Of a stretch of DNA of 64,000 bases, positions 1 through 57,634 are shown piece by piece. The notes beneath the pieces are model-generated. The model was not told the origin of the DNA. It worked only from the letters and a program-made list of their open reading frames with translations, and ran no database searches. A program made the translations under genes and the position numbers. The stretch comes from an uncultured Methylococcus sp. (GTDB lineage Bacteria; Pseudomonadota; Gammaproteobacteria; Methylococcales; Methylococcaceae), in assembly GCA_964344615.1 (NCBI GenBank), contig CAYFOC010000001.1, positions 802-64,801 of the forward strand. The letters are read 5' to 3'. How positions within the stretch are numbered: position 1 is the first letter of the stretch; each line of letters opens with the position of its first letter.

Positions 1-1025
1 ATAAGGCACGGGTCAGGCTTCAGGCTTTAGTGACTGAAATCATGGAACGCCGCTCCAAGGAGCGCTCCGAAAGTCCTAACGTTTTCCAGACTCTGATTGA
101 TGCCGCCTATGAAGATGGCACGAAACTCACCCCTCATGAAATTACGGGGATGCTGATAGCGACCATTTTTGCTGGACACCACACAAGTTCAGGAACGACG
201 GCGTGGGTCCTGATCGAACTTCTAAGGCATCCTGAATGGATGGCGAAGGTGGTAGAAGAACTGGATCAGTTGTTTGGGAAGGACGGGGACGTCACGTTTG
301 AGTCCTTGCGTCAGATTCCGAATCTAGAAAGTGTTCTTAAGGAAGTTCTTCGTCTACATCCGCCTCTGATTATTCTGATGCGCAAGGTATTGGAGGATTT
401 CACGATCGGGGATACCACCATCCCGGCGGGCAAGTTTGTTTGTGCTGCGCCTGCAATCACTCATCGAATTGCGTCTTTGTTCCCCAATCCGGAACAGTTT
501 GACCCTGATCGATATTCTACAGAGCGCCAGGAGGACAAGAACCTTTATGCCTGGCAAGCGTTTGGTGGTGGACGTCACAAGTGTTCGGGGAACGCGTTCG
601 CACTCTTCCAGATCAAGGCGATCTTCTGCATCCTGCTTCGCCGTTATGAGTTTGAACTGGTCTCAGAAGCTGACACCTATCGCGACGACTATACGAAGAT
701 GGTGGTAGAGCCAGCATCCCCTTGCAAAGTTCGCTACAGGAGAAGGAAGACGACCCAGGAGGCCCTTGGCCAGGAACCCACAAATGGTTCAAAGGAAATA
801 AAGGATGAAGCCTCGCAAGGTGCAAGGATTGTTGTGGACATGGACCTTTGCAAGGGCCATGCAACCTGCATGGGAGAAGCGCCTGAACTCTTCAGAGTGG
901 ATGCAGAAGGGCAGTTGACCGTTTTGAATGATCGTCCGGATTCTGACCTCTTACCCAAGGCCAGAGCTGCTCAGCGTTATTGTCCCACCCAAGCCATCCG
1001 TATCGAAGGTGACGAGGGGGAGTAA
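1..1025 (+). CDS. cyp51: Sterol 14-alpha-demethylase (CYP51-type cytochrome P450) fused in frame to a C-terminal ferredoxin domain; the 5' end lies outside the window
   Basis: The frame is open from nt 3 with no stop upstream of the listed GTG at 30, so the window edge truncates the gene. Motifs: I-helix 'FAGHHTSSGT' (CYP51-type AGxHTS signature), ExxR 'EVLR', heme-thiolate loop 'FGGGRHKCSGNAF'. A polar linker 'RRRKTTQEALGQEPTNGSKEIKDEASQG' is followed by a ferredoxin module. Confidence 0.9.
   Translation, partial: KARVRLQALVTEIMERRSKERSESPNVFQTLIDAAYEDGTKLTPHEITGMLIATIFAGHHTSSGTTAWVLIELLRHPEWMAKVVEELDQLFGKDGDVTFESLRQIPNLESVLKEVLRLHPPLIILMRKVLEDFTIGDTTIPAGKFVCAAPAITHRIASLFPNPEQFDPDRYSTERQEDKNLYAWQAFGGGRHKCSGNAFALFQIKAIFCILLRRYEFELVSEADTYRDDYTKMVVEPASPCKVRYRRRKTTQEALGQEPTNGSKEIKDEASQGARIVVDMDLCKGHATCMGEAPELFRVDAEGQLTVLNDRPDSDLLPKARAAQRYCPTQAIRIEGDEGE
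822..1022 (+). other. Ferredoxin domain of the CYP51 fusion (3Fe-4S-like cysteine spacing)
   Basis: The last 67 aa are 'ARIVVDMDLCKGHATCMGEAPELF...RYCPTQAIRIEG'. The CxxHxxC...CP pattern is the one found in small actinobacterial-type ferredoxins and in the Methylococcus capsulatus CYP51-ferredoxin fusion (recalled, not aligned). Confidence 0.8.
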
Positions 1026-2208: not shown

Positions 2209-2218
2209 GGGGAATGTT

Positions 2219-3067: not shown

Positions 3068-3088
3068 ATCGAGGCTGAAACCTCTGGG

Positions 3089-4582: not shown

Positions 4583-4591
4583 GCAACAACA

Positions 4592-6583: not shown

Positions 6584-6603
6584 GTTGTTGGTGTTCGGGA
6601 GAG

Positions 6604-7407
6604 TTAGTGCGCAGCTTTGGTGATTTCGAGGATGACTTCGGCGAATTCTTTGTCCCAGATCACCCGGTTATAGCCCCAGGGGCCCTTGGCCAGAATGGTT
6701 TGGCCTCTTTGTATTTCTGCCTGAGCCTCTGTGGTTTTCTCATCCACCTCGAATAAGGCTTCCGCATAAAACAAGTGATTAAGTGGATGCTGACCGTAGT
6801 GGTCAACGGCTTCCTTAAGGTAAGACAGAGCCTTGTCCCCGTCACCGATGCCGGTCGGCCAGGGAGGGGCTTTCAGGTACAGCATTCCGAGCAGACGCAA
6901 CGGCCCCCCTTGATCAACGGCTTTCGAGAGTCGGGCGGCTGTCGTCAATTCATCTTCCAGGCGATGTAGGTTCTCAGCCGCCTGCACAGGGTGGTTGTTG
7001 ATGGCGAGGCCCAAGTTGGCAGCCAGATAATAGTGAACAGCCGCATCCTCCTTGCCGCCATTTGACAGGGCTCGTTCGGCAAGTTTCACGCCTTCGGCGG
7101 CGAGAGCTTCCCGGTCAGGTCCTGTAGGAAGTCTTTCAGCCAGATGCAGGGCAATTTCCGAAGATCGTGAAGATCGGATGAAGGCAGGCGTCGTGGATTT
7201 CCGCGCCAAATTCATCGCACACTGGAGATCCTCCGTTGATGTAGATGGACCAAGCGATGAAGATTCGGACAGTAGCTTTTCTTCTGTGATGTCTGCGCAA
7301 TTCCCATGCCCTACAAGGGCAACGATGCGATTGGGAAGGGCACTACAGGCGGAGAGAAGGGTCAGGGTCAGAAGCAAGCTGACCCGGTAACTCATGTGCA
7401 TCATCAA
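6604..7407 (-). CDS. bstC: Helical-repeat (TatT/TPR-like) lipoprotein, a BstC-like putative sterol-binding envelope protein
   Basis: The lipoprotein signal has the lipobox 'LTLLSAC'. The helical C-terminal block is shared with the 2219-2977 protein. Its start overlaps the stop of the upstream binding-protein gene (TGATG/TTGA at 7402-7407). The BstC assignment comes from family and context only. Confidence 0.6.
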   Translation of the reverse strand: MMMHMSYRVSLLLTLTLLSACSALPNRIVALVGHGNCADITEEKLLSESSSLGPSTSTEDLQCAMNLARKSTTPAFIRSSRSSEIALHLAERLPTGPDREALAAEGVKLAERALSNGGKEDAAVHYYLAANLGLAINNHPVQAAENLHRLEDELTTAARLSKAVDQGGPLRLLGMLYLKAPPWPTGIGDGDKALSYLKEAVDHYGQHPLNHLFYAEALFEVDEKTTEAQAEIQRGQTILAKGPWGYNRVIWDKEFAEVILEITKAAH

Positions 7408-8246
7408 TGACTCTTGTTCCAGAGGCTAATCATGGGATTAATTGCGGCAGGCGAAGCGGGGACAAAGGCGTCTATGGCAAACAGACCGCACAATTTCATC
7501 CCATCAGGGTCCTTGCAGAGGTTTGCAAGGGACTTTGCAAACCGTGCGCGCTCGTCGCTGGTGCTGGACTCCTGATTGGCCACGAGCCCCATCAATGGCA
7601 AGGGCGCCGAGGTGAAGACCGAGTCCAGTTCATGAGTCAAAGGAAGCGACCCGAGTGCAGCGAATTGCTGTCCATTGAGCAGTACCGCATCCAGTTCACC
7701 CTTGTCCAGAGCGCGCAAAGCACGGATAGCTTGTTTGCTGGCTTTAAGCTGAAAGTCTTGTTCTGGATTGATTTTCCCGGCGAACACAATTTTGCGGATA
7801 AAGCCTGCTTCCTCGAAAACCGTCCCGCCGATCGTTTTGCCCTTGAGGTCATCGAGTGAAGCAAAGCGTCCCTTTATCGCCACAAGATGAAACTGCTCTG
7901 TCGTTTCTCCGCGCATCTTGGGTTGGACGACGGGTTCAAGGTGAAGGCTGTCACGCTGCTCCAAAAAGATGCCCAGTGAGGTAATCGCGAATGCGGGATT
8001 ATTTTCGTTCAGAAGTTTCTTGCAACCCTCGACATCCGAAGAGAAGCTGCTGCTGAAGGTATTGGCAGGCCATCCTCCAACCCGTTCCACCACACTGAGC
8101 ATTGCAGACATCGCCTTATTGGCATCGTCTTCGCTCACGGGGCCACCCGGGTAGCAGACGACAACCGTTGAGGAAGCCGCAATCGTTGCGCCTGAAAAGA
8201 CGATTCCGATGATCAGGAGGATATTTCGAACAGATTGAAAGCTCAT
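7404..8246 (-). CDS. bstB: Periplasmic substrate-binding protein (PhnD-like type-2 PBP fold), BstB-like
   Basis: The signal/anchor is 'ILLIIGIVFSGATIAASS'. A PBP-like 'LDDLKGKTIGGT' segment is present. The gene lies 6 nt after the RND gene and overlaps the start of the next gene. No ABC permease or ATPase is nearby, so it is not a classical ABC importer component. Confidence 0.6.
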   Translation of the reverse strand: MSFQSVRNILLIIGIVFSGATIAASSTVVVCYPGGPVSEDDANKAMSAMLSVVERVGGWPANTFSSSFSSDVEGCKKLLNENNPAFAITSLGIFLEQRDSLHLEPVVQPKMRGETTEQFHLVAIKGRFASLDDLKGKTIGGTVFEEAGFIRKIVFAGKINPEQDFQLKASKQAIRALRALDKGELDAVLLNGQQFAALGSLPLTHELDSVFTSAPLPLMGLVANQESSTSDERARFAKSLANLCKDPDGMKLCGLFAIDAFVPASPAAINPMISLWNKSH

Positions 8247-8252
8247 TGCGAT

Positions 8253-10937
8253 TTATTTTTTCCGACGGGTAACAAGGATCAGTCCGATAGCGGGTGCGAT
8301 GAACAGCGTGGATGCGAGACAACTCAGGAGACCTATGGTGATATCAATACCCAGTCCCGAAACGCCTCGGTAGCTTGCCAATGTGATGGCGCCAAGTCCC
8401 GCGAGTTCCGTTCCGGCTGCGAGCAGAATGACGCGGCCTGCATCCAGTGCAATGCCGACCGGATCCCGACCCTCAAGGGCCATCCAACGATGACTGAGCC
8501 AGACGCCATAATCGACCGCCAACGCAATCACGAGTGGCAAAGCGATGATATTGGCGTAATTGTAGTGCAGCCCAGCGACTTTCATCACGCCAAGCATCCA
8601 TCCTCCGCCAATTACAAGCGGCAGAGCTGCCATCAATATGCCTTTAGGGGACCGAATGACGAAGCATAGCCAAGCCAGACAGACGAGGATGGCGGCTTTG
8701 GTTCCATGGCTGAAACTACTGACTACGGCCTTGGAGAAGACCTGATGCGTTGAGGGGAAGCCGGTTGCATCGGGAGAAACGGAGTACACCTCCTTCATCA
8801 GATCATCGAGGTTGTTCGGGTCATAGACACTTTTTGCAGGGTAGGCGTAGGCAGCCAGGGTGCCATCGGGCGCAACAAACCGCTCTCTTATTCCATCGGG
8901 CAGATCCGAAGGTGACAGCGGGGTGGTTTTTTGCCATCTTGAAACGGTCTCGAGGCCATGAGTGGCTGAAGCGATAAGTGCTCTGAGGAAAGCCTCTGAG
9001 CGTGCGCGACCTGAATCTGGCTCTTCTTCCAGGCGAATGAGGATGTCATTCATGTCCTTGTGGAGCGCCTCTATGCGGCTGACCAGCTCCTTGTTGCCCG
9101 AACTAAACGCCTGTTCTTCGTAGTCCTCAAGTTTTTCAATGGCCAAACGAAGGCTCTGACGAATCTTGAAGAACGTGGGTTCATCAAGGCCCTGATTGCT
9201 CAGTGTCAGGAGATGCTGACGTAGGACAGGTCTTGCGGCGAGCGATCCCAGACGATGCGCCTGCTCGATGCGTTCAGATCCATCGGCTGGGAAGAAACTG
9301 CTGATGGACTGCACTTTGGCTATCGTGGGGAGCTGCTGAGCGCCTTCTGTGATTCTCCGAATATCTTCTAACGTCTTGGCCGTGAAGATGATGATTTCGG
9401 ACTGATAATCTGTCTCTGTGACCAGCTTTCGTTGATATTCGGCGGCTTTGGAGTCTTTGGGGAGCAAAGACAAGACGTCGTAATCAAATTCCATGTCCAG
9501 ACCGGCATGGATGCCGAAAATGGCTCCGCCGGACGCGATCAGCACCAGGGCAAGCGCGACACTCCTGGGGAGTGTCGGTGACGTGGCGTCAACCTTTTTT
9601 ACCTTCTTCGCCTTCATTTTAGGAGGGAAGAGGGCATAGACGGCGGGCTGAACGACCCATGTGCTGATGAGGATCAGAAGAACACCACCTGCAGCGATGA
9701 TGCCGAGTTCTGCAAATCCCGGGAATTCGACCGTTGCCAGCGTTCCAAAGATGAAGAGGGATGCGCCACCGGCGGTTATGACGGCTGGAAAGGAATCGCG
9801 TATCCCAGTGCCGATCGCGTCCAAAAGCGGTAATCCTGAACGCCTGGCTTCGGCAATTTGTGAGGTCGTGAAAATGCCATAGTCCGCGCCGAGGCCAAAA
9901 AGGATGGCGAGGAAGCTCGATGTGATGATGGTGAGATGGCCCACGGTCAAATAGGCGAAGCCAAGACTCCAAAGTGCACCCAGACCCATCGGGATGAAAA
10001 TCGCAAGCGCCCACGGAACACTTCTGACGACGAGGAAAATGAGTGCGCCGATCAATCCCGCAGCGGTCCAGATGACCATCTTGATATCCCGTTCGATATC
10101 GATGTACTCCTCGTAGGCGATCGCAGGCAATCCGGTCAGAACGACATTCGGGGCCTTCAGGCCTTTTGCTTCAAAGTCATGGGCAAGTTCTCCGGCTGCC
10201 TTCTGAACTTTTTCATTCAGAGGCGCCAGCGTCTCAAAGTCTTCCCCCTTGGCCTTGGCATGAACGAAAACCAAAAGCATTCGGCCATCGTGCGAGGTGA
10301 AATACCCTTTGCCCAGTTGCTCAGCGCCAATGGCTTTGAGGATTTCTTCGAAATTGATATCTGCGCTTGAGGGCGGGTTGTTCAGCCAGCGTTGCCATTC
10401 CTGAAGAAACGCATCCGCCGCTTTCATACCGGTCAATGCCGCTTGAATATCCGGGGTATCAGAATCGGCCCCCGCATTGCTTGATGAGGCCAGCGCCATC
10501 AAGGATTCAAGGGACGCTCCTTTGATCGTGGATCCGGCCTGAAGCGCTTTTTCGAGCTGATCAAGCTGATCTTCTGGCAGCAAGAGGTAAAGATGGTCGT
10601 GCAAGAAGCTCGTGTCGATGCGATCTGTGGCTTGCGCAATTTCAGGGAGACTTCTTAGCTTGACTGCCAGTTCATGGGCAAAGGATTCCAGATCTTCGCG
10701 CGGAGCATTCTCAAGGATCACCACCAGGTCCGAGGAAGCACCGAAGGTGTCGAGATACTGGTTCAGTCGGTGCGCAACCTCCGTGTTCTGTGGCAACAAG
10801 GCCTGCCTTGATGTGTAAACCGGCAGGTGTGTCGCAGCAAGGATGGCAGCGAGTGAAATCAATAAGGCTCCGGAGAGAACCCACCAGGGGTGACGGGCGG
10901 AACCAAGGCTCAGGCGATAAACGAGAGTTTTCAGCAT
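8253..10937 (-). CDS. bstA: RND-superfamily inner-membrane transporter of the HpnN/MmpL type, BstA-like putative sterol exporter
   Basis: The 894-aa protein has two 6-TM bundles ('...ILFGLGADYGIF...' and '...VIALAVDYGVWLSH...'), each preceded by a large periplasmic loop. This is the typical HpnN/MMPL architecture. It is the first gene of the operon that ends with the cyclase and epoxidase. Confidence 0.7.
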   Translation of the reverse strand: MLKTLVYRLSLGSARHPWWVLSGALLISLAAILAATHLPVYTSRQALLPQNTEVAHRLNQYLDTFGASSDLVVILENAPREDLESFAHELAVKLRSLPEIAQATDRIDTSFLHDHLYLLLPEDQLDQLEKALQAGSTIKGASLESLMALASSSNAGADSDTPDIQAALTGMKAADAFLQEWQRWLNNPPSSADINFEEILKAIGAEQLGKGYFTSHDGRMLLVFVHAKAKGEDFETLAPLNEKVQKAAGELAHDFEAKGLKAPNVVLTGLPAIAYEEYIDIERDIKMVIWTAAGLIGALIFLVVRSVPWALAIFIPMGLGALWSLGFAYLTVGHLTIITSSFLAILFGLGADYGIFTTSQIAEARRSGLPLLDAIGTGIRDSFPAVITAGGASLFIFGTLATVEFPGFAELGIIAAGGVLLILISTWVVQPAVYALFPPKMKAKKVKKVDATSPTLPRSVALALVLIASGGAIFGIHAGLDMEFDYDVLSLLPKDSKAAEYQRKLVTETDYQSEIIIFTAKTLEDIRRITEGAQQLPTIAKVQSISSFFPADGSERIEQAHRLGSLAARPVLRQHLLTLSNQGLDEPTFFKIRQSLRLAIEKLEDYEEQAFSSGNKELVSRIEALHKDMNDILIRLEEEPDSGRARSEAFLRALIASATHGLETVSRWQKTTPLSPSDLPDGIRERFVAPDGTLAAYAYPAKSVYDPNNLDDLMKEVYSVSPDATGFPSTHQVFSKAVVSSFSHGTKAAILVCLAWLCFVIRSPKGILMAALPLVIGGGWMLGVMKVAGLHYNYANIIALPLVIALAVDYGVWLSHRWMALEGRDPVGIALDAGRVILLAAGTELAGLGAITLASYRGVSGLGIDITIGLLSCLASTLFIAPAIGLILVTRRKK

Positions 10938-11065
10938 GAAAAGTGATGCACAGTCGCAAAAATGGAATGGAAACTATTCTGCAAGAGCAGGTGTCTCACC
11001 CGGAGTGAGTGTCACGGGGGGCCCTGTGGCTCGCACTCATATTAACGGCGATAGAGAGAATACTC

Positions 11066-11470
11066 ATGATTAACCTTTACGGGCCAGCCATTGTTAAGGG
11101 TATTGGGCTTTTTCTGACCCTCTACTTCATTCATGTGGTCCTTTTGCCCCAGTTGGTAGGTGAATCGGCAGCAACCGGGGATTATCAGGGCTTATTGTAT
11201 GGGATCAATCAGCTCCTTGGATTGGCTACCTGCATGATTCCTGGTTTTATGGCTGCAAGAATGGCCGGACATCACGGCTTTCTTCATGGATTGCTGGTCG
11301 GAGGGATCAGCACGGTCCTGACCGCGTTGATGGCGATGCTGTGGTCGATCATTACCGGTGCAAAGTTTTTTGGACTCGAGATGCTTCCCTTCTGGCTCGT
11401 GATGAATGGGTTCCTATCGGCATTCGCAGGTCTTCTTGCGACGAACATGACCGAATCTGAAGAGGAATAA
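11066..11470 (+). CDS. Small integral membrane protein (about 4 TM helices), function unknown
   Basis: This is a hydrophobic ORF, 'MINLYGPAIVKGIGLFLTLYFIHVVLLP...'. ATG 11066 is preferred over GTG 11009. It is divergent from the sterol operon. Confidence 0.5.
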   Translation: MINLYGPAIVKGIGLFLTLYFIHVVLLPQLVGESAATGDYQGLLYGINQLLGLATCMIPGFMAARMAGHHGFLHGLLVGGISTVLTALMAMLWSIITGAKFFGLEMLPFWLVMNGFLSAFAGLLATNMTESEEE

Positions 11471-11570
11471 TTCGATTACGCGACTCGCGAACTTCCATAG
11501 CTCGGAACGGTGGTGGAATTCCCACACGTACGTGGGGGATAATGATCCCAATTCCCACCCGAGGCGCGAA

Positions 11571-34667: not shown

Positions 34668-34680
34668 AGCTTCATCGAAT

Positions 34681-35634
34681 ATGTCCATCATTGAAGGCCT
34701 TATTGGCCAATCCCCGAACTTTGAAAGCCTCCTCCGGAGCGCGAGGATGGTTGCCGCCACGGATGTTCCTGTCCTGATCATCGGGGAAACCGGGACGGGT
34801 AAGGAAGTCTTGGCTAATGGGCTGCAGCAACAGAGCCCACGAGCCAACAAGCCTTTCATTACGATCAACTGTGCGGCCCTGCCTGAGTCGCTTGCCGAGT
34901 CGGAACTTTTCGGTCACAAGAAAGGGTCTTTCACGGGAGCCATTGCCAACCAGTTGGGACGTCTCCAGGCTGCAAATGGCGGCACCGTATTTCTCGATGA
35001 GGTCGACTCGCTGGCGATCGCCTTGCAGGCCAAGTTGCTTCGGTTCCTTGAATCGGGAGAAATCCAGCCGGTGGGGGAAACCCAGTTTCAGAAGGTCGAC
35101 GTCAGAATCATTGCGGCTACCAATGCGGATCTGCAAGAACGCATCAATCGGGGCGAATTCAGGCGTGACCTTTACTATCGGCTGAATGTCGTACCTCTTG
35201 AGATTCCTGCCCTGCGTGATCGTATGGGGGACATTCAGGTTCTTATCCATCATTTCATGCAGCAGTTTACCCGTAGTCACGGACTGCCAAATGCCACCAT
35301 CAGCAAGGCCGCGCTGCAAAAATTGCTGCATTACCCCTGGCCCGGAAATGTCCGGGAACTTCGAAACGTCTGTGAACGCCTTTGTATTTTGCTGGCAGGA
35401 AAGACAATTGAAGAACATAATCTCCCACCGGAGATTTTGACCGGGAAGGCGGCGTCTCCTGAGGCGCGTGAGATTGTGTTGCCTGAATCCGGGATTAACC
35501 TTGAGCAAGTTGAAATTGACCTGATTGTTCAGGCACTTGAGAGAACCAAGGGAAATCGCAGCCAGGCGGCGCGTCTCCTGGGTATCTCGCGGGATACCTT
35601 GCTCTACCGCATGCAAAAGCATCGCATCACCTGA
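34681..35634 (+). CDS. Sigma-54-dependent transcriptional activator consisting only of AAA+ and Fis-type HTH domains (no sensory/receiver domain)
   Basis: Walker A is 'GETGTGKE'. The 'ESELFGHKKGSFTGA' segment carries a GAFTGA-type loop. 'VRIIAATN' is present and the C-terminal HTH is 'GNRSQAARLLGISRDTLLYRMQK'. The AAA+ domain begins about 10 aa from the N-terminus. Confidence 0.85.
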   Translation: MSIIEGLIGQSPNFESLLRSARMVAATDVPVLIIGETGTGKEVLANGLQQQSPRANKPFITINCAALPESLAESELFGHKKGSFTGAIANQLGRLQAANGGTVFLDEVDSLAIALQAKLLRFLESGEIQPVGETQFQKVDVRIIAATNADLQERINRGEFRRDLYYRLNVVPLEIPALRDRMGDIQVLIHHFMQQFTRSHGLPNATISKAALQKLLHYPWPGNVRELRNVCERLCILLAGKTIEEHNLPPEILTGKAASPEAREIVLPESGINLEQVEIDLIVQALERTKGNRSQAARLLGISRDTLLYRMQKHRIT

Positions 35635-35838
35635 TTCCTGACCGGAACGATGCCCCTTGATCTTGCCGGGCAGAGAACGGCTGCAATCTGATGATGCCGA
35701 GGGCATCAAGCAAGAAGACTTCTCGGTGTTTTACACGCGTTAATTTCGTCTGAATCCTCAGATCGCTGAAGATTTGGATGGGATGAGGGCGTTCGATTTA
35801 AAGAAAGAACCCATAACAAAAAGAACGAGGTAACGATC

Positions 35839-38387: not shown

Positions 38388-39512
38388 TTGAAATTTACCG
38401 AGATCAATACCCACAAGGGACTCATTTTGGGTTTTGCGATCGTTCTTGGTCTGCTGCTGTTGACGATGGTGAGCATGCGCTCACAACTGATCCAGCATCC
38501 GGCCATGAACTACGGGGAGATCGTGTCGGACCTTCCTATCCCTGTTCATCCAAATCAGACTGTGGAACTGGGCATCTTTGTCCAGAATATCTACCGCTTC
38601 GAGGCAGAGAACAATACGTTTGATAGTGACGGTTGGGTCTGGGTGAAATATTCCCCGTGGCTCCATGCTCAAATGGCCAAGCGCAAGATATCCGCCGTGG
38701 ATCTCATCAATTTCATCAATCTGGTGAATCGCTACGACTTTACCCTTTCACAGACCACCAACGGCCCTCTTCTGATGCCCGATGGGCGTTACTACGAGCG
38801 ATTCAGGTATTCGGGGCATTTCTACGTGGATGATCTTGATTTTCGGAAATTCCCTTTTCAAACGATCTCACTTCCTCTGATCGTTCAACTTCAGTCTCAG
38901 CAATTACGAGACGATGTGGCGCCGATTGAACTAACCATTGATCGCCGAGATTCGGCAATCGGTCCATTCATCGATATCAGTAGTTATGAGACGATAGGCT
39001 ATGAGCTCAAAGGGCTTCTGACGCACTGGATGAGTCGTATGGGCAATGATCTTCGTGACGGAACGGGGGTCGCGTCAGAATTGCGAATGGAAGTCCGTTA
39101 CAAAAAGGCGCTGAACTCTACGTTCCTGAAATTAATCCTGCCACTGTTGACGGTAATGTTGATCACGCTATTTGCACCGTCGATTGCCTCGCACGGTTGG
39201 GACGTCCGGATTGGGATTCCCCCAACCTGCATCCTGACGCTTATCTTTCTGCAGCAGAGCTATCATGAGCATCTTCCTGACTTTCAATATCTGACGTTCC
39301 TCGATAGCGTTTATAACCTTTGTTTCTTTATCAACATTACCCTGTTCGGATTATTCCTCTGGGGCGCGAACGTCTACCATTCGGCCTCCGGATCTCACAG
39401 GCACCAGGTGGCTGCACTCATCGATCGGGTGGATTTCAGGTTTCAGATCGGGCTGTCTGTTGTTTTGATTTTGGGCACTGGCTTTGATTGGCTGGTTCAC
39501 CGCTATATCTGA
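38388..39512 (+). CDS. Prokaryotic pentameric ligand-gated ion channel (GLIC/ELIC-type Cys-loop receptor homologue)
   Basis: After the N-terminal signal/anchor comes a beta-rich extracellular domain of about 200 aa ('[30 protein letters not shown]'). The loop equivalent to the Cys-loop is '[13 protein letters not shown]' (FPFD-like). M1 is '[28 protein letters not shown]', M2 is '[18 protein letters not shown]', M3 is '[19 protein letters not shown]', then a short loop and M4. Confidence 0.7.
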
Positions 39513-49956: not shown

Positions 49957-51567
49957 CTAGTCTTTGCTGAAATCCACGTTCGCATCTTCCCCTGCCTTGA
50001 GTTTCCTCATTTCGACAGGTGAGATGCGGCCTCTGGACGAGACCTTGTCGTAGATCTCTCCAAAAGCCTGTCGGCAGAAAGGAAGACGGTCGCGCAGGCG
50101 ATCATAGGCTGAATGATCAAACATCTTTCGGAAGTCCTCTTCCGTAAGGAGCGTCTTGGCATAAAGCGCCTGATAACCCTGATTCTCGATCACGAACTTT
50201 TCCAGCGAGGGCAGAGCTTTGCGACCGTCAAAGCCGGTCTTCTTGGGCGTGCCGTAAGCCCCAATATCCACATACATCGGATCGCGCTCACCGTTTGGTG
50301 CCTCATAGGGATGAATTAGGCCGAGATGCTGTGGGTTGTCGAACACCGCCATCGGTGAGAGCCACAGCGGATATAAGTCGAAGTGGTCGTCAAAGTACTC
50401 CAGGGACTTTTTCAGCAAAGCCATCGGCATCAGCATATCCTGCACGACATGATGCTTTTCCCGAAGGCGTCGGGTTGTCTCGGTCTCGGTGTACTTCAGC
50501 AGTTCAATGCGTGGGGGCAGGGCCCAACCCAAAAGAAACCTGAACAAGGGGTTGTTGCCGAAAGTGATGATTTCCTCCATGGCCCAGAAGTAGCTCCGGG
50601 TATGACGGTGGAGGTAGTCACGGAGCGGAATGTATTCCACAACCTCTTTGCCGGCGGCAAGAATTTCCTCAACGTGTTTGTAGAACCAAGGCTTATACCA
50701 GCGACCAATCGGATTGATTGGGCCATCCTGACCGGCTTCATCGGTCAGATTTCCAATCATGACCACGCCCCGATCGCGGCTGTAGGTCAATGCTTCAACA
50801 TATTCATTCTCGACCGTGTTCCGGCAGGCCTGATCAAATGATTCTGTCAGGGCGTCAAGGCGTGTCTTCGGATGGTAGGACACTCGAACATATTTCTTGG
50901 CGGGGATGATCTTGAGTTCGGCCGCAACCAGAAATCCGAGCGTACCGTGACTCCAGGGGATGAGATGGAATAGTTCCGAGTTTTCATCGGCGGAGCAGTG
51001 CAAGAGCTTTCCTTCGGCCGTCACGATGTCGAAGGATTCGCAGATGAATTGGAATAACCCATATTTGTGGCTGCTGGTTTCAACGCCAAATCCCATGATC
51101 AGGCCGCCGACGGTGAGATCATCAAGTTCAGGGACAACGGGCAAAATCCAGCCCCGACTGATCAAGGTTCTTGAGATTTGTCCCATGCTTGCCATGGGTT
51201 CGACACGAACCGTTTGTCGCTCCTCGTCGATCGATAACAGGTCATACATCCCGATGTAGATGTTTCGGCGCGAGAGTTTGTATTTTGGAACCATCTCACT
51301 CATGGATTGCCATCCAGAGCGGGCCGTACAGAGTTGTTCCTTGGCGCCGTCCTTTTGCCATGCCTCGATTTGAGCGATGACCGATTCAACCCGCTGCTGG
51401 TGTCTTTGCGGCGCGGTTCGCATGCGGAAGAGGATGTGGTTGCGAATGAAGACGTAAGCGCTGTAGACCGTTGAAATCGGTAGTAGGCACACGGTTGCGA
51501 ACAGACCCCGATGGTGGGTCAGGATATATTCGAAGAGTTGCCCTGAGGCTTTCGTTTCTTGGGTCAT
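49957..51567 (-). CDS. Delta(24)-sterol reductase (DHCR24 / DWF1-DIMINUTO family FAD-linked oxidoreductase)
   Basis: Against my recollection of human DHCR24, long runs are identical or near-identical: 'VRVEP..(S/T)MGQ', 'PELDDLTVGGLIMG', 'SSHKYGLFQ', 'GTLGFLVAAE', 'IIPAKKYV', 'YKPWF.KHVE', 'EYIPLR.Y.HRHTRS.FW', 'FGNNP.FR.L.GW..PP.I.LLK', 'HHVVQDML.PM', 'YP.WL.P' and 'DIGAYG.P'. There is also an N-terminal TM helix and a 'AP..H..RV' segment. Confidence 0.85.
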   Translation of the reverse strand: MTQETKASGQLFEYILTHHRGLFATVCLLPISTVYSAYVFIRNHILFRMRTAPQRHQQRVESVIAQIEAWQKDGAKEQLCTARSGWQSMSEMVPKYKLSRRNIYIGMYDLLSIDEERQTVRVEPMASMGQISRTLISRGWILPVVPELDDLTVGGLIMGFGVETSSHKYGLFQFICESFDIVTAEGKLLHCSADENSELFHLIPWSHGTLGFLVAAELKIIPAKKYVRVSYHPKTRLDALTESFDQACRNTVENEYVEALTYSRDRGVVMIGNLTDEAGQDGPINPIGRWYKPWFYKHVEEILAAGKEVVEYIPLRDYLHRHTRSYFWAMEEIITFGNNPLFRFLLGWALPPRIELLKYTETETTRRLREKHHVVQDMLMPMALLKKSLEYFDDHFDLYPLWLSPMAVFDNPQHLGLIHPYEAPNGERDPMYVDIGAYGTPKKTGFDGRKALPSLEKFVIENQGYQALYAKTLLTEEDFRKMFDHSAYDRLRDRLPFCRQAFGEIYDKVSSRGRISPVEMRKLKAGEDANVDFSKD

Positions 51568-51615
51568 GGATCTTTTGCTACGTGCTTTTGCGCTAATGGG
51601 ATCGTCATATCAGAA

Positions 51616-51637
51616 AGCCCCTACGAGGGTAGGGGCT
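51616..51637. repeat. Perfect 9-bp-arm inverted repeat in the divergent DHCR24/sdmB-like control region
   Basis: The repeat agcccctac-gagg-gtaggggct lies 49 nt upstream of the DHCR24-like ATG (51567, minus) and 54 nt upstream of ATG 51691 (plus). Confidence 0.6.
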
Positions 51638-51690
51638 TCCTCTGTTGTGCCATGTTACCATTAGAGAAATTGCGCGAATATTCAGGAACC

Positions 51691-52701
51691 ATGACCTCGA
51701 CTCCGATTCTTGTCACAGGTGGCACGGGCCATCTTGGCGCCAATCTCATTCGCCGCCTCTTGCGTGACGGCCACGCCGTAAGGGCGCTGGTTCGCCCCGG
51801 CCGAGACAATGGGGCGTTCGATGGCCTTGATCTTGAAGTGATTGAGGGCGATCTCAGGGATCGCGCGGCCGTTGAAAATGCGGTGCGCGGTTGTCGTAAG
51901 ATCTACCATTGCGCGGCTCATGTTTCGACGATCGAAGGGGATGCCGCGCACAAGCGTGAAATCTTTGAGTCCAATGTTCTTGGAACAATGAATCTCCTGG
52001 ATGCTGCAAAATCATTGGGCGTTGAGAAGGTGGTTGTTTCAGGCTCTCTGAGTGCAACCGGCTATGAAAAAGGGGTACCGAGCGTTGAGTCGGATCCTTT
52101 CTATCCCTTTGACCGGCATCTGCCTTACGGCTTCACCAAGCATTTGGTGGAACATCATTGTCTCAGAGCGCATGCCGATGGGCTGGATGTCGTTGTCGCT
52201 GTTTCCTGCGCGATCATAGGACCTAACGATTTTGTTCCCTCGCGGTTCGGGCAGGTGCTGATTGATTTTGCCCATGGCAAACTGAATGCCTACATTCCGG
52301 GCGGATTCGAATTTGTCTCGACCGAAGATATTGTCGAGGGACACGTGTTGGCGATGGATAAAGGTCGTTCTGGCCAGAAGTATCTGATCAGTACCACGTA
52401 TTCGACCGTAGATGATCTTCTAGACCTCTTTTCAGAGGTCACCGGGAAGCCAAAGCCACGGCTTCGCCTCCCGATTCCGGTGATGGCAGCCATCGCCGGA
52501 GTGATGGATACGCTTTGGTTCAGATTCTTCCCGAATCAGCCAAGACGTTTTACACCCGCAGCTGTTCGACTGCTGAGCATGCATCGTAAGGTCGATAATT
52601 CGAAGGCCAAGAACGAGCTCGGCTACCAGCCAACGTCTCTGCGCGATGCTGTGCAATCCGCCTATGATGACTTTGTCAGACGAGGTCTGATTCGGCGGTG
52701 A
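51691..52701 (+). CDS. sdmB: NAD(P)-dependent extended-SDR (3-beta-HSD / epimerase-dehydratase family), SdmB-like sterol C-4 demethylation reductase/decarboxylase candidate
   Basis: I moved the start to ATG 51691, which has AGGA upstream. The Rossmann motif is 'ILVTGGTGHLGANLIRRLL' and 'LPYGFTKHL' carries the YxxxK catalytic pair. The gene sits immediately upstream of a Rieske oxygenase and divergent from DHCR24. The symbol is assigned by context. Confidence 0.6.
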   Translation: MTSTPILVTGGTGHLGANLIRRLLRDGHAVRALVRPGRDNGAFDGLDLEVIEGDLRDRAAVENAVRGCRKIYHCAAHVSTIEGDAAHKREIFESNVLGTMNLLDAAKSLGVEKVVVSGSLSATGYEKGVPSVESDPFYPFDRHLPYGFTKHLVEHHCLRAHADGLDVVVAVSCAIIGPNDFVPSRFGQVLIDFAHGKLNAYIPGGFEFVSTEDIVEGHVLAMDKGRSGQKYLISTTYSTVDDLLDLFSEVTGKPKPRLRLPIPVMAAIAGVMDTLWFRFFPNQPRRFTPAAVRLLSMHRKVDNSKAKNELGYQPTSLRDAVQSAYDDFVRRGLIRR

Positions 52702-52767: not shown

Positions 52768-53925
52768 ATGAGGGATCCCCTTGATGACCGTGAATTAACC
52801 CCGCCCCCCTCGTTCCAGGAATCGCGCAGTACAAGACAGAAAGTACGCGCCGCCGGGTTGGATCCCGATCGTTGGTATGCGGTTGAGTATGACCGTGAAA
52901 TCAAGAAAGGCGAAATCAAGGAAGTTCAGTTCTGGAATCTGTCGATTGCTCTGTTTAGAGGAGAAGATGGGACCTTGTCTGCTCTCCAGAACCGGTGCCC
53001 GCATCGTCATCTGAAGCTCACGCATGGTGTTGTCGACAAATGCCAGGTTCGCTGCGCCTATCACGGCTGGTCTTTTAATCGGGATGGCTGGCTCACCGAC
53101 TATTCGCATGACAGCTTCGGTAAGCCACTGATCAAGAGCAAGCTGAGAACGTTTCCTGTAGAAGTCCGCTATGGCCTCGTCTGGCTGTTCCCGGGCGACC
53201 CTGATCTTGCCTCTGTTCGGAAAATCCCTGAAATTCCTGAACTCATGACGGACGATCCTTGGGCCGGGTTTACGGTCGACTATACGTGGAAGACCCATCA
53301 TTCCATGGTGATCGACAATATCTGCGACTTTGCGCATGCCTTCCTGCATCGGAAGTATCAGCCGTTTGTTGATGCAAAGTTGACCCACTATGAGGCGGAT
53401 GAGGACAAGGTTTATCTGACTTATGACACCTACATGGCCGAAGGTAAATTCTCCAAGTATTTCGTCAACCGCAAGCGGGTTAACACCCGATCGATTGAGA
53501 TCTGCTACGAATATCCTTACCAATGGTCAAATACAGGGAACAGCATCAAGCACTGGTGCTTCCTCCTTCCGATCGACGAACGGACAACGCGCGTATTCTT
53601 TATCTTCTACTTTGATAGCGTGAAGATTCCGATGATTCCGTTCAATGCACCGAAATGGCTGACACAACAGGTGCTTAATGCGTCCGTGCCGCTTCTATTC
53701 AAGCCCTTGCTGGCGGAAGATGGTGTCGCCCTCGAGGCCGAGCAGATCGGCTATGAGGAGCATTGGAATGCGCCACCCATTGAGCTGAACCCGATTGTGC
53801 CCTTGCTTCAGAAGTTGACGGTTGAGCAGTGGCAGAACTTCCTTGATCGAACAGCCGCTGCGGCGTCAAAGCCGAAGAGCCGGTCTGAAGAAGAGAAGCC
53901 TTCCGAAGTGGCCGAAGCCGTATAA
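52768..53925 (+). CDS. sdmA: Rieske [2Fe-2S] non-heme-iron oxygenase, SdmA-like sterol C-4 methyl oxidase candidate
   Basis: The Rieske motif is 'CPHRHLKLTHG...CAYHGW'. The mononuclear iron site is 'DNICDFAHAFLH'. The gene lies 66 nt downstream of the SDR gene. The symbol is assigned by context. Confidence 0.6.
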   Translation: MRDPLDDRELTPPPSFQESRSTRQKVRAAGLDPDRWYAVEYDREIKKGEIKEVQFWNLSIALFRGEDGTLSALQNRCPHRHLKLTHGVVDKCQVRCAYHGWSFNRDGWLTDYSHDSFGKPLIKSKLRTFPVEVRYGLVWLFPGDPDLASVRKIPEIPELMTDDPWAGFTVDYTWKTHHSMVIDNICDFAHAFLHRKYQPFVDAKLTHYEADEDKVYLTYDTYMAEGKFSKYFVNRKRVNTRSIEICYEYPYQWSNTGNSIKHWCFLLPIDERTTRVFFIFYFDSVKIPMIPFNAPKWLTQQVLNASVPLLFKPLLAEDGVALEAEQIGYEEHWNAPPIELNPIVPLLQKLTVEQWQNFLDRTAAAASKPKSRSEEEKPSEVAEAV

Positions 53926-55253: not shown

Positions 55254-57149
55254 ATGATTAGTGCGCGCAATCTCGCCCTTCGTCGAGGCCCTAGGGTTCT
55301 CTTCGAAGGGGCCTCGTTCACCCTCAATCGAGGTGAACGCGTAGGCATTACCGGAGCCAATGGGGCCGGAAAATCCAGTTTCTTTGAGCTCATTCTTGGG
55401 ACGCTTCACCCGGATCAGGGAGAGCTTGATGTGGCTCTGGGCCTTGAAATTGCCCATGTTGCCCAGGAAACACCGGCTTTGGCCACGACGGCGATCGACT
55501 ACGTGCTCGATGGGGACCGTGAACTCCGCAAGATTGAATCGGACATCGAGGCCGCAGATGCGCTCGGTGATGGAATGGCTCTGGCCCATCTCCACGAAGC
55601 CTATTTGCATGTGGGAGGCTATGAGGCAAGGGCAAAGGCCGCTCGACTTCTCAACGGCCTTGGCTTTGCCCCAGGTTCTGAGTCGCGTTCGGTCTGCGAG
55701 TTCTCTGGTGGTTGGCGGGTCAGGCTGAATGTGGCCCAGGCCCTCATGTGCCGCTCAGATGTTCTTCTGCTTGACGAACCGACCAATCACCTTGATCTCG
55801 ATGCCGTGATCTGGCTTCAGGACTGGTTATCGTCTTACCCGGGAACCTTGCTGCTGGTCTCGCATGACCGCGATTTTCTGGATGATCTGGCTACGCATGT
55901 TCTTCATATCGAACATGGCAAGGTCCAGCTTCATACCGGCAATTATTCTGCCTTTGAAACGCGTCGGGCTGAAATGCTGGCGCAACAAAATGCCTCGTAC
56001 CAGCGGCAGCAGCGCGAACTGCAGCGAATCCAGGGCTTTGTCGACCGATTCAGGGCGCAGGCGACCAAAGCCAGGCAGGTCCAAAGCCGTCTGAAGGCAC
56101 TTGATCGCATGACCTTGATTGCCATGGCTCAGGCGGATAGCGATGTAGCCTTCAGCTTCGAGGCGCCGGAAAAATATCCTACACCGCTGTTGCGACTGGA
56201 TGGCATCAGTGCGGGATATTCCGATGTTCCGATTCTGTCGGGCATCGATATGACCATCAGCCCTGGTGATCGTATTGGATTGCTCGGACCCAACGGAGCT
56301 GGTAAATCGACGCTGATTAAGGCTCTGGCCGGTGTCGTGAATACGACGGCGGGAGAGAGGATTCCTGCACAGGATCTCAAGATCGGATACTTTGCACAGC
56401 ATCAGCTTGAACAGCTGAATCCTGAGCAGAGCGCCTTGTGGCATCTTCAGAAACTCGACCCTAGAGCGCAAGAACGTGACCTCAGGAATTATCTAGGTGG
56501 CTTCGGATTCAAGGGTGAACGCGCCCTTGAGCCCATCGGACCTTTTTCAGGGGGGGAGAAGTCACGGCTGGTTCTAGCCATGCTGATTCGCCAGCGCCCG
56601 AATCTTTTGTTGCTGGATGAACCTACCAATCATCTGGACCTTCCGACCCGTGATGCTCTGACGCTCGCCCTGCAGGAATATGAGGGTGCACTTGTCCTCG
56701 TGTCCCATGATCGTTATCTCCTCAGGACAGTAGCTAATGAATTCCATCTGGTCGCAGATGGTGGAACCGTGTCTTACCAAGGCGATCTGGATGAATATCG
56801 ACGTTGGCTCGCGGAGCGTAGGCAACGTCAGAAGGATTCAACGGTCACGACTGCACCTGCGCCGGAGCCCCAAAGTCGACAGCTATCGAAGCAGGAAGAG
56901 GCCGAGAAACGCAAGCAGCAGAAAACCTTGACCACGGCCCTTGAACGGGCTGAACGGCGGATGAATCAGGCCAGTGAGCACTTAGAGATCCTTGAGCAAA
57001 AGCTGGCGCAGGAGGATCTTTACCGGCCTGAGTCGGTTGAGACCCTGAATCAATTGATCAAGGAACGTGATCTGCATGCCGCCGAGCTCAAGGAATCGGA
57101 GAATGCGTGGCTTGAGGCCAGTGATGCCCTGGAGTTGCTAGCGCAATGA
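55254..57149 (+). CDS. yheS: ABC-F family ATPase (YheS-like translation factor)
   Basis: There are two ABC cassettes ('GANGAGKSS'/'LLLDEPTNHLD' and 'GPNGAGKST'/'LLLDEPTNHLD'), no TM domain and a C-terminal coiled-coil. I moved the start to ATG 55254. Confidence 0.85.
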   Translation: MISARNLALRRGPRVLFEGASFTLNRGERVGITGANGAGKSSFFELILGTLHPDQGELDVALGLEIAHVAQETPALATTAIDYVLDGDRELRKIESDIEAADALGDGMALAHLHEAYLHVGGYEARAKAARLLNGLGFAPGSESRSVCEFSGGWRVRLNVAQALMCRSDVLLLDEPTNHLDLDAVIWLQDWLSSYPGTLLLVSHDRDFLDDLATHVLHIEHGKVQLHTGNYSAFETRRAEMLAQQNASYQRQQRELQRIQGFVDRFRAQATKARQVQSRLKALDRMTLIAMAQADSDVAFSFEAPEKYPTPLLRLDGISAGYSDVPILSGIDMTISPGDRIGLLGPNGAGKSTLIKALAGVVNTTAGERIPAQDLKIGYFAQHQLEQLNPEQSALWHLQKLDPRAQERDLRNYLGGFGFKGERALEPIGPFSGGEKSRLVLAMLIRQRPNLLLLDEPTNHLDLPTRDALTLALQEYEGALVLVSHDRYLLRTVANEFHLVADGGTVSYQGDLDEYRRWLAERRQRQKDSTVTTAPAPEPQSRQLSKQEEAEKRKQQKTLTTALERAERRMNQASEHLEILEQKLAQEDLYRPESVETLNQLIKERDLHAAELKESENAWLEASDALELLAQ

Positions 57150-57634
57150 GTGCGCTGCTAAGGCTGTTCTTCGACATCACTTGCCTTCGAAAGGGTCCTC
57201 AGGACATCCCCGATTCCGGGTTGCTTCTAGCTTTGGCGTTGGTTGCGGATCTGATCCTCTCTGCACTCGTCGGGCTAACTGGCGGAGAGGTCATCGATGC
57301 CTTTCTTCAGTCCTTGGTCGCTACGGTGCTTCTTTTGGCCTTCCTGGCCGTCGTCCTATTCAGCACATCCCATTGGCAACGATTTAAGAGAACGGTAACG
57401 GCGGCCTTGGGTTGTGATGCCCTCATGACCCTTGTGGCCCTTCCTGTCACTCTCCTTGGCGAGATGGTGCCGGGGACAGGCCTTCTCGTTCTGGTGGTAG
57501 TGTTCTGGAATCTGGTGGTTTTTGCTCACATACTTCGACACGCCCTCGGTATAGGATATGCCTTGGCCGGAGCCTTGGCTTTCATATACATGGTGGCTAG
57601 TATGGATCTCATGGCACAGATCTTCGGTGCCTAG
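57146..57634 (+). CDS. Integral membrane protein, unknown function
   Basis: The 162-aa protein has 4-5 hydrophobic helices. Its start overlaps the yheS stop by 4 nt. Confidence 0.5.
   Translation: MSALLRLFFDITCLRKGPQDIPDSGLLLALALVADLILSALVGLTGGEVIDAFLQSLVATVLLLAFLAVVLFSTSHWQRFKRTVTAALGCDALMTLVALPVTLLGEMVPGTGLLVLVVVFWNLVVFAHILRHALGIGYALAGALAFIYMVASMDLMAQIFGA

What the first reader, a model, noticed from the sequence alone, without database searches (positions are those of the whole stretch)
49957..51567. Animal-like DHCR24 (delta-24 sterol reductase) homologue in a bacterium
The 536-aa protein matches my recollection of human DHCR24 over essentially its whole length. It has many identical 6-14-residue runs: PELDDLTVGGLIMG, SSHKYGLFQ, GTLGFLVAAE, IIPAKKYV, HHVVQDML and FGNNP.FR. 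The N-terminal membrane helix is also present.

Conservation at this level with a metazoan/plant sterol side-chain reductase is unusual for a bacterial protein. It suggests either inter-domain gene transfer or a shared ancestry of late sterol steps.

Functionally it predicts that this organism saturates the C24(25) double bond. That would give cholest-8-enol-type 4-methyl sterols alongside the dienols.
Basis: partly seen in the sequence, partly recalled or inferred. Interest (0 to 1): 0.7.

Follow-up and report, generated by a model that had tools for sequence, protein, structure and literature searches.

The report
Methanotroph DHCR24-type sterol side-chain reductase
This gene in a methane-oxidising bacterium is a true full-length relative of the animal cholesterol enzyme DHCR24 and almost certainly saturates the sterol side chain, but the gene and its likely eukaryotic origin have been described in methanotrophs since 2009.

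Summary
The ORF at 49957..51567 (-) encodes 536 aa that align with mammalian DHCR24 over 503 residues at 49% identity (530 bits). All six quoted identical runs are present, and so is an N-terminal hydrophobic helix.

- The gene lies head to head with sdmB-sdmA (bacterial sterol C-4 demethylase).
- About 40 kb away in the same window are CYP51-ferredoxin, squalene epoxidase, oxidosqualene cyclase and bstABC.
- In 36 of 80 related bacterial loci the homologue sits beside sterol genes.
- In my NJ tree the bacterial sequences (Methylococcales, Bacteroidota, Competibacteraceae) form one clade. It groups with Metazoa, excluding other labelled eukaryotes, in 83% of bootstraps.
- GC and codon usage match the host genome, so any transfer is ancient.

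None of this is new. Desmond & Gribaldo (2009) reported the M. capsulatus DHCR24 homologue branching with Metazoa and choanoflagellates. Wei et al. (2016) linked its presence or absence to C-24 saturation in methanotrophs.

One correction: the expected products are delta8(14)-enols, not delta8.

Still open are direct enzymology of a methanotroph enzyme and the exact donor lineage. Verdict: real, ordinary for this clade, already known.

The parts
49957..51567 (-). DHCR24-type delta24(25)-sterol reductase gene, 536 aa
   Evidence: ORF. 49% identity over 503 aa to mammalian DHCR24. More than 1600 homologues; JGI names them delta24-sterol reductase. AF2 model pLDDT 85.3, pTM 0.86.
51445..51507 (-). 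Codons 21-41: N-terminal hydrophobic helix, probable membrane anchor
   Evidence: Highest Kyte-Doolittle 19-residue window in the protein, 1.77. AF2 helix 20-50. Aligns with the hydrophobic N-terminal segment of animal DHCR24.
50992..51249 (-). Codons 107-192: core of the PCMH/VAO-type FAD-binding domain
   Evidence: Pfam PF01565 FAD_binding_4, E 3.5e-13, 49.9 bits against cutoff 26.4. Fold matches to DprE1 and cytokinin oxidase.
51568..51651 (.). 84-bp divergent intergenic region between the reductase and sdmB. Holds a 10-bp-stem inverted repeat at 51615-51638.
   Evidence: Sequence. Inverted repeat found by the terminator-like scan. The repeat is absent from the same region of related loci. 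No sigma-70 consensus found.
51652..52701 (+). sdmB-like NAD(P)-dependent sterol C-4 demethylation reductase/decarboxylase; start placed at ATG 51652
   Evidence: Pfam Epimerase/3Beta_HSD. Best NCBIfam hit NF052578 SdmB, 306 bits, below the equivalog cutoff of 600. Start codon context ATG TTA CCA is invariant in 8 related loci. 63-84% identical neighbours in other methanotroph loci.
52768..53925 (+). sdmA-like Rieske 4beta-methylsterol monooxygenase
   Evidence: Pfam Rieske + VanA_C. Best NCBIfam hit NF052579 SdmA, 385 bits, below cutoff 600. Syntenic in related loci.
1..1025 (+). 3' part of CYP51-ferredoxin fusion (sterol 14-demethylase), cut by the window start
   Evidence: Pfam p450 (profile positions 226-460) plus Fer4_15/Fer4_13 at the C terminus. 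Fused CYP51fx is described for M. capsulatus (PMC7947880).
3089..6583 (-). Squalene epoxidase (3089-4582) and oxidosqualene cyclase (4592-6583)
   Evidence: Pfam SE and SQHop_cyclase_N/C. NCBIfam TIGR03463 2,3-oxidosqualene cyclase, 925.9 bits, above cutoff 851.
6604..10937 (-). bstC (6604-7407), bstB (7404-8246), bstA (8253-10937): sterol transporter genes
   Evidence: NCBIfam BstC 306.7 bits (cutoff 350), BstB 386.7 (cutoff 350, passes), BstA 1272.9 (cutoff 1400). The system is described in PMC10942540.

Best explanation
The gene encodes a membrane-anchored, FAD-dependent delta24(25)-sterol reductase that is an orthologue of animal DHCR24.

Proposed mechanism. This step is inferred from the characterised eukaryotic enzyme (EC 1.3.1.72), not tested here. 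NADPH reduces the bound FAD, and the reduced flavin saturates the C24=C25 double bond of the sterol side chain.

In this methanotroph the substrates would be the lanosterol-derived dienols made by the OSC, CYP51-ferredoxin, 8,14-Bsr and SdmAB pathway. The products would be 4,4-dimethyl- and 4alpha-methyl-cholest-8(14)-en-3beta-ol.

The gene is part of the organism's sterol regulon or neighbourhood. It is divergently arranged with sdmB-sdmA.

Evolution. It belongs to one bacterial clade (Methylococcales, some Bacteroidota, Competibacteraceae) whose closest relatives are eukaryotic, animal-like DHCR24. That fits a single ancient eukaryote-to-bacterium transfer, followed by vertical inheritance within Methylococcales and some bacterium-to-bacterium spread.
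For: Shown here:
- Full-length 49% identity to mammalian DHCR24, and 48-52% to 12 metazoan sequences.
- FAD_binding_4 domain.
- A confident two-domain VAO/PCMH fold with an N-terminal helix.
- Four residues mutated in human desmosterolosis are identical: R94, N294, K306 and Y471 (human numbering). E191 and E480 are replaced conservatively by D. The list of disease residues is from my own knowledge.
- sdmB and sdmA are adjacent. OSC, SE, CYP51fx and bstABC are in the same window.
- 36 of 80 related loci carry a sterol gene within 8 kb of the homologue, including OSC next to it in two Bacteroidota loci.
- Complete synteny with 85-88% identical homologues in five Methylococcaceae MAGs.
- The bacterial clade is monophyletic in 100% of bootstraps, and groups with Metazoa in 83%.
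- The unlabelled sequences near the bacterial clade lie on contigs with eukaryotic-type neighbours: actin and EMP24.
- GC, GC3 and codon usage are typical of the window (z -0.68 and +0.97; codon distance rank 4 of 42).

From the literature:
- The M. capsulatus DHCR24 homologue branches with Metazoa and choanoflagellates and fits its 24,25-saturated sterols (PMC2817430).
- Methylosarcina lacus lacks the homologue and does not saturate C-24. Methylobacter luteus has it and makes only saturated side chains (PMC4919349).
Against: - I found no direct enzyme assay or knockout of any methanotroph DHCR24 homologue in the searchable library.
- M. capsulatus itself has no sterol gene within 8 kb of its copy (L058), so clustering is frequent but not universal.
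- R103 (human numbering) is M or L in the bacterial clade. It is also not conserved in the non-metazoan eukaryotes sampled.
- The tree is neighbour-joining on Kimura-corrected distances, not maximum likelihood, and the deep backbone is weak. The node joining the bacterial clade to the metazoan group has only 30% support once unlabelled sequences are counted strictly.
- No choanoflagellate, filasterean or labelled plant sequence could be included.
Confidence: 0.85

Rival explanations
1. It is a true DHCR24 homologue with a shifted activity. It could be a DWF1-like delta24(28) isomerase-reductase, or a reductase acting on another isoprenoid tail such as hopanoid or quinone side chains, rather than a delta24(25)-sterol reductase.
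For: No activity data exist for the bacterial clade. Plant DWF1 shows that the family can vary in reaction (own knowledge). Many loci, including M. capsulatus L058, show no sterol gene nearby.
Against: - Identity to animal DHCR24 (49-52%) is much higher than to the plant-like sequence: 38% to my recalled DWF1.
- Methanotrophs make no 24-alkyl sterols, so a delta24(28) substrate is absent (PMC4919349).
- Presence or absence of the gene tracks C-24 saturation (PMC4919349).
- There is tight linkage to sdmAB, bstABC, CYP51 and OSC.
Confidence: 0.06
2. The direction of transfer is reversed. The DHCR24 lineage now in animals and their relatives came from bacteria of this clade, or both inherited it from a pre-LECA bacterial sterol pathway.
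For: - More distant homologues sit in clearly bacterial contexts (P0260 clade).
- The bacterial clade is broad: 195 GTDB species, three higher taxa.
- The chytrid sequence groups with stramenopile and other protist sequences rather than with Metazoa, so eukaryote relationships in the tree are not organismal.
- Recent work argues that several bacterial sterol enzymes are of bacterial origin (PMC12004948).
Against: - The bacterial clade is a single tight clade (100% bootstrap) inside a set of diverse eukaryotic sequences.
- Published ML analyses infer an origin within eukaryotes and transfer to M. capsulatus (PMC2817430, PMC8237579).
- The bacterial hosts are phylogenetically scattered, which fits acquisition.
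Confidence: 0.1
3. It is a generic FAD-linked (VAO/PCMH) oxidase with only domain-level resemblance to DHCR24, or a eukaryotic contaminant or chimeric assembly.
For: Pfam and NCBIfam return only generic FAD-domain families. NCBI names the homologues 'FAD-binding oxidoreductase'.
Against: - The alignment to DHCR24 spans 94% of the protein at 49% identity. The generic families reach only 16-54 bits against cutoffs of 290-850.
- Composition and codon usage are native.
- The same gene order recurs in five independent MAGs.
- The flanking genes are bacterial: gltBD, OmpA and ABC-F.
Confidence: 0.01

Closest known systems
Animal DHCR24 (seladin-1; delta(24)-sterol reductase, EC 1.3.1.72)
   Same: - Collinear over the whole length at 49-52% identity.
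- Same N-terminal hydrophobic helix and the same FAD_binding_4 core.
- Four desmosterolosis residues are conserved.
- The predicted reaction is the same: NADPH/FAD-dependent saturation of C24=C25.
   Different: - The host is bacterial.
- It lacks the first ~11 residues of the animal N terminus and has a ~20-residue C-terminal extension.
- R103 is not conserved.
- The likely substrates are 4-methylated delta8(14) sterols rather than desmosterol or lanosterol in the Bloch and Kandutsch-Russell routes.
- Activity is untested.
DHCR24 homologue of Methylococcus capsulatus and other Methylococcales (Desmond & Gribaldo 2009; Wei et al. 2016)
   Same: It belongs to the same orthologous clade. It is 63% identical to the M. 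capsulatus Texas copy and 67-70% to Methylobacter, Methylotuvimicrobium and Methylomonas copies. Methylococcales are monophyletic in 99.5% of bootstraps. The inferred role and evolutionary story are the same.
   Different: - It comes from a different, apparently uncultured freshwater Methylococcaceae lineage; the nearest GTDB species are 85-88% identical.
- Here the gene is divergently paired with sdmB-sdmA. In M. capsulatus no sterol gene lies within 8 kb, and in Methylobacter it follows sdmBA-bstABC.
Plant DWF1/DIM (delta24 isomerase-reductase)
   Same: Same protein family and fold, with a membrane anchor and a sterol side-chain reductase role.
   Different: Only about 38% identity (to a DWF1 sequence recalled from memory). 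The plant-like representative P0269 falls in a different part of the tree. The plant enzyme also isomerises delta24(28).
Bsr, the geranylgeranyl-reductase-family bacterial C-24 sterol reductase of Myxococcota and Cyanobacteria (PMC12004948)
   Same: Same proposed reaction (C-24 saturation) in a sterol-producing bacterium, and often clustered with sterol genes.
   Different: The fold and family are unrelated: GGR/FAD_binding_3 type against VAO/PCMH type. The window protein gives no GGR-family hit. It is the 'canonical' type, not the bacterial invention.
ERG4/ERG24-family sterol reductases, including the eukaryote-like ERG4 homologue of Coxiella (mentioned in PMC2817430)
   Same: Sterol side-chain and ring reductases, also found sporadically in bacteria through transfer from eukaryotes.
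   Different: They are non-homologous polytopic membrane proteins without FAD. There is no ERG4_ERG24 Pfam hit here.

Membership tests
DHCR24/DWF1 delta24-sterol reductase family (KEGG K09828) | Collinear, near full-length sequence similarity to a characterised member | tested here: met
   49% identity over 503 of 536 residues, 530 bits, against mammalian DHCR24 P0123.
DHCR24/DWF1 delta24-sterol reductase family (KEGG K09828) | PCMH/VAO-type FAD-binding domain followed by a substrate (cap) domain | tested here: met
   PF01565, 49.9 bits. AF2 model pLDDT 85.3. Foldseek matches DprE1, CKX and GalDH over ~470-500 columns at E 1e-17 to 1e-19.
DHCR24/DWF1 delta24-sterol reductase family (KEGG K09828) | N-terminal hydrophobic membrane anchor | tested here: met
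   Residues 21-41 have a Kyte-Doolittle mean of 1.77. AF2 helix 20-50.
DHCR24/DWF1 delta24-sterol reductase family (KEGG K09828) | Conservation of residues whose substitution inactivates human DHCR24 (R94, R103, E191, N294, K306, Y471, E480; list from my own knowledge of the desmosterolosis literature) | tested here: met
   R83, N285, K297 and Y469 are identical. D180 and D478 are conservative replacements. M92 replaces R103, which also varies in non-metazoan eukaryotes.
DHCR24/DWF1 delta24-sterol reductase family (KEGG K09828) | Phylogenetic placement with eukaryotic DHCR24, not with the distant bacterial FAD-oxidase clades | tested here: met
   Bacterial clade + Metazoa + other eukaryotes exclude the distant bacterial clade in 100% of bootstraps. 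Bacterial clade + Metazoa group in 83%.
DHCR24/DWF1 delta24-sterol reductase family (KEGG K09828) | Occurrence in a sterol-producing organism or genetic linkage to sterol synthesis | tested here: met
   sdmB and sdmA are adjacent. OSC, SE, CYP51fx and bstABC are in the window. 36 of 80 related loci are linked to sterol genes.
DHCR24/DWF1 delta24-sterol reductase family (KEGG K09828) | NADPH- and FAD-dependent reduction of the sterol C24=C25 bond | not testable with these tools
Only a correlation with lipid profiles is available (PMC4919349).
Other VAO/PCMH flavoenzymes (DprE1, cytokinin dehydrogenase, sugar-1,4-lactone oxidases, GlcD) | Score above the family's curated cutoff, or similarity beyond the FAD domain | tested here: not met
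   NCBIfam scores are 16-54 bits against cutoffs of 292-850. PDB sequence hits are limited to residues ~107-262 at E >= 1.5e-7.
ERG4/ERG24 sterol reductases and GGR-type Bsr | Homology to the respective family domains | tested here: not met
   No Pfam or NCBIfam hit to ERG4_ERG24 or geranylgeranyl-reductase models for this protein.

The most novel reading that the evidence does not exclude
The canonical, eukaryote-type C-24 reductase forms one bacterial clade that spans Methylococcales, several Bacteroidota orders (Flavobacteriales, Chitinophagales, Saprospirales, Crocinitomicaceae) and Competibacteraceae, 195 GTDB species in all. Methylococcales appear nested among the Bacteroidota and Competibacteraceae sequences.

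If that holds, a single ancient capture from an animal-lineage (holozoan-like) eukaryote was followed by spread between bacterial phyla. The methanotrophs may then have received the gene second-hand. That would give a relative time link between early holozoans and these bacterial radiations, and would point to many unrecognised bacterial producers of side-chain-saturated sterols.
Probability: 0.3. Interest if true: 0.45.

Novelty: already known. Interest (0 to 1): 0.22.

Why it matters
Bacterial sterol synthesis bears on two questions: how sterane biomarkers in old rocks are read, and where the eukaryotic sterol pathway came from.

This gene is one of the clearest cases of a late, eukaryote-type sterol enzyme sitting in a bacterial pathway. 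The rest of that pathway uses bacterial inventions (SdmAB, 8,14-Bsr, BstABC). That picture is already in the literature, so this window adds only another member.

It does add three smaller things:
- a tidy example of the reductase physically paired with sdmBA;
- a wider count of bacterial carriers than the papers I read report;
- a reminder that Pfam and NCBIfam have no specific model, so genome annotation pipelines still call it 'FAD-binding oxidoreductase'.

The main gap is that no one appears to have assayed a methanotroph enzyme directly.

Tried and rejected
- The listing of cluster members on ten 50%-identity representatives was meant to give taxon labels. It returned almost none; only one MMETSP label, the red alga Erythrolobus. 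I labelled eukaryotes and bacteria instead. For four unlabelled sequences I inferred origin from contig neighbours.
- PDB sequence search found no solved DHCR24, only generic VAO-family hits.
- The sigma-70 promoter scan of the divergent intergenic region found nothing. The terminator-like count was no higher than in shuffles.
- The 10-bp inverted repeat at 51615-51638 looked like a possible operator, but it is absent from the same region of seven related loci. I dropped it as a conserved regulatory element.
- I checked ORF 11009-11470, next to bstA, as a possible NTF2-type 8,14-Bsr. It is a small hydrophobic membrane protein with only a weak DUF3792 hit, so I rejected it.
- Recent horizontal acquisition was tested by GC, GC3 and codon usage and rejected.
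- Contamination or chimera was rejected by synteny in five MAGs.
- My recalled Arabidopsis DWF1 was used only to flag P0269 as plant-like (66% identity). No conclusion rests on it.
Full report
**The feature**

The window has one long ORF at 49957..51567 on the minus strand, with an ATG start, encoding 536 aa. Pfam sees only a partial FAD_binding_4 domain at residues 107-192, at 49.9 bits. NCBIfam returns only generic FAD-linked oxidase families far below their cutoffs. The PDB holds no close relative: the best sequence hits are cytokinin dehydrogenase and DprE1, at E about 1e-7, confined to the FAD domain. From profile libraries alone the protein would be called a generic flavoenzyme, and NCBI does name its homologues that way.

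**Check of the observation**

I used my recollection of human DHCR24 only as a search query. It returned named delta(24)-sterol reductases from mammals at 95-97% identity, and from other animals down to cnidarians at 64%.

Against one of those database sequences (P0123, sea lion, 516 aa) the window protein gives 530 bits and 248/503 identities (49%) with only 10 gap positions, covering residues 12-514.

The N-terminal hydrophobic segment (residues 21-41) has the highest hydropathy in the protein. AlphaFold2 models it as part of a long helix.

**Structure**

An AlphaFold2 model built on a 42-sequence alignment is confident (mean pLDDT 85.3, pTM 0.86). It shows N-terminal helices followed by a two-domain alpha/beta body.

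Foldseek against the PDB returns DprE1, cytokinin oxidases and galactonolactone dehydrogenase over about 470-500 columns. E-values are 1e-17 to 1e-19 and identity is 13-16%. This is the VAO/PCMH flavoenzyme fold.

Four residues that I know as sites of human desmosterolosis mutations are identical in the window protein and almost invariant across the alignment: R94, N294, K306 and Y471. E191 and E480 are replaced by D. R103 is M or L in the bacterial clade and also varies in non-metazoan eukaryotes.

**Genomic context**

- The gene is divergently arranged with two genes whose best NCBIfam matches are SdmB and SdmA (4beta-methylsterol monooxygenase), the bacterial sterol C-4 demethylase pair. 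Both score below the strict equivalog cutoffs.
- An ATG TTA CCA motif that is invariant in eight related loci places the sdmB start at 51652. That leaves an 84-bp intergenic region.
- On the other side lie an OmpA/YidB protein and gltB-gltD.
- The first 11 kb of the window carry the rest of a methanotroph sterol toolkit: the 3' part of a CYP51-ferredoxin fusion, squalene epoxidase, oxidosqualene cyclase (TIGR03463, above cutoff) and bstC-bstB-bstA. These match published descriptions (PMC10942540, PMC7947880).

**Distribution and synteny**

A scan of one genome per GTDB species found relatives in 195 species. The best 80 fall into three groups:
- Methylococcales, 62-88% identical;
- Bacteroidota (Flavobacteriales, Chitinophagales, Saprospirales, Crocinitomicaceae), 54-62%;
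- Competibacteraceae, 55-60%.

The closest are freshwater Methylococcaceae MAGs at 85-88%. They share the whole gene order gltD-gltB-OmpA-reductase-sdmB-sdmA-UPF0227-YcxB-ABCF. The window therefore comes from an undescribed relative of these.

In 36 of the 80 loci at least one sterol gene (sdmA/B, bstABC, CYP51fx, OSC or SE) lies within the 8-kb flanks, in several different arrangements. OSC sits next to the reductase in two Bacteroidota loci. M. capsulatus shows no such linkage.

**Phylogeny**

I aligned 100 sequences: 17 Methylococcales, 16 Bacteroidota/Competibacteraceae, 12 Metazoa, 17 other eukaryotes or eukaryotic transcriptome sequences, and 38 unlabelled 50%-cluster representatives. 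After trimming, 502 columns remained. I built NJ trees on Kimura-corrected distances with 200 bootstraps.

| Grouping | Bootstrap support |
|---|---|
| Bacterial clade monophyletic | 100% |
| Methylococcales monophyletic | 99.5% |
| Bacteria + Metazoa, excluding all other labelled eukaryotes and a distant bacterial clade | 83% |
| Eukaryote monophyly excluding the bacteria | 3.5% |

Mean identity of the bacterial clade to Metazoa (50.8%) exceeds that of Metazoa to other eukaryotes (46.9%).

Two unlabelled sequences that cluster near Metazoa sit on contigs next to split actin genes or an EMP24/GP25L gene, so they are eukaryotic. The unlabelled sequence closest to the bacterial clade (P0241) sits next to a DDX60-like helicase, and its origin is unclear. 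The distant clade (P0260) has a clearly bacterial context.

Deep nodes are weak and the method is simple. Even so, the result reproduces the published ML finding.

**Composition**

GC is 0.529 and GC3 is 0.639. The codon-usage distance from the other 41 genes is 0.100. All are typical of the window (z = -0.68, +0.97 and -1.19; codon-distance rank 4 of 42). The gene is fully adapted to its host, so any transfer is old. That fits its order-wide distribution.

**Comparison with the literature**

[quoted passage not shown] They noted that it fits the bacterium's 4-methyl- and 4,4-dimethyl-cholest-8(14)-enols.
- Wei, Yin & Welander (2016, PMC4919349) listed the homologues in Methylococcales and myxobacteria. 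They showed that a methanotroph lacking it does not saturate C-24, while Methylobacter luteus, which has it, makes only saturated side chains.
- Hoshino & Gaucher (2021, PMC8237579) infer that DHCR24 evolved within eukaryotes.
- Methanotroph genome papers routinely annotate it as DHCR24 (PMC8788690).
- Lee et al. [quoted passage not shown]

I found no direct enzyme assay or mutant for a methanotroph copy.

**Verdict**

One chemical detail needs correcting. The ring double bond in methanotroph sterols is delta8(14), made by 8,14-Bsr (PMC13277303), not delta8.

The finding is a rediscovery of a known case. The parts that go a little beyond the papers I read are the divergent pairing with sdmBA in this lineage, the count of 195 carrier species, and the Bacteroidota/Competibacteraceae members of the same clade. 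I rate the interest as low.

Noticed in passing
window 1-10937: A second sterol gene block about 40 kb from the reductase. It holds the 3' part of a CYP51-ferredoxin fusion (cut by the window start), a family-21/2 glycosyltransferase (1030-2292) and a TPR protein (2219-2977) wedged between CYP51 and squalene epoxidase, then OSC and bstC-bstB-bstA. The glycosyltransferase inside a sterol cluster might point to sterol glycosylation.
   Followed up: partly
loci L056, L059, L061-L069, L072, L073, L075, L076, L078 (Bacteroidota); L065, L079 (Competibacteraceae): DHCR24-type reductases 54-62% identical to the window protein occur in many Bacteroidota and in Competibacteraceae MAGs, and form one clade with the methanotroph genes. 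In L056 and L059 an OSC homologue is adjacent. L056 (Chitinophagaceae) is sister to Methylococcales in 89% of bootstraps. MAG binning errors are not excluded.
   Followed up: partly
window 51615-51638: A perfect 10-bp-stem inverted repeat (AAGCCCCTAC GAGG GTAGGGGCTT) lies in the 84-bp divergent region between the reductase and sdmB. It is missing from the same region of seven related loci, so it looks like a lineage-specific insertion rather than a conserved operator.
   Followed up: yes
window 11009-11470 (+) and 11532-12788 (+): Next to bstA lie a 153-aa hydrophobic ORF with only a weak DUF3792 hit and a UbiH/UbiF-family ubiquinone hydroxylase (TIGR01988, 430 bits). The latter also gives a weak squalene-epoxidase Pfam hit but is a quinone enzyme, not a second sterol epoxidase.
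   Followed up: yes
locus L081 (contig of P0241): The unlabelled homologue closest to the bacterial clade (69% bootstrap) is encoded on a 7.5-kb metagenomic contig. It is convergent with an intronless 1897-aa DDX60-like helicase gene, 128 bp away. Whether the contig is from a protist, a giant virus or a bacterium is unknown. It could be close to the donor lineage.
   Followed up: no
window 49957-51567; Neither Pfam nor NCBIfam has a model specific for DHCR24-type reductases. RefSeq/GenBank therefore name the bacterial homologues 'FAD-binding protein' or 'FAD-binding oxidoreductase', while JGI/KEGG-based pipelines call them delta24-sterol reductase. This is an annotation gap rather than a biological one.
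   Followed up: yes
window 38388-39512 (+), 34672-35709 (-), 57146-57634 (+): Three sizeable ORFs (374, 345 and 162 aa) have no Pfam match at the thresholds used. 34672-35709 overlaps an opposite-strand ORF (34681-35634), so one of the two is probably spurious.
   Followed up: no
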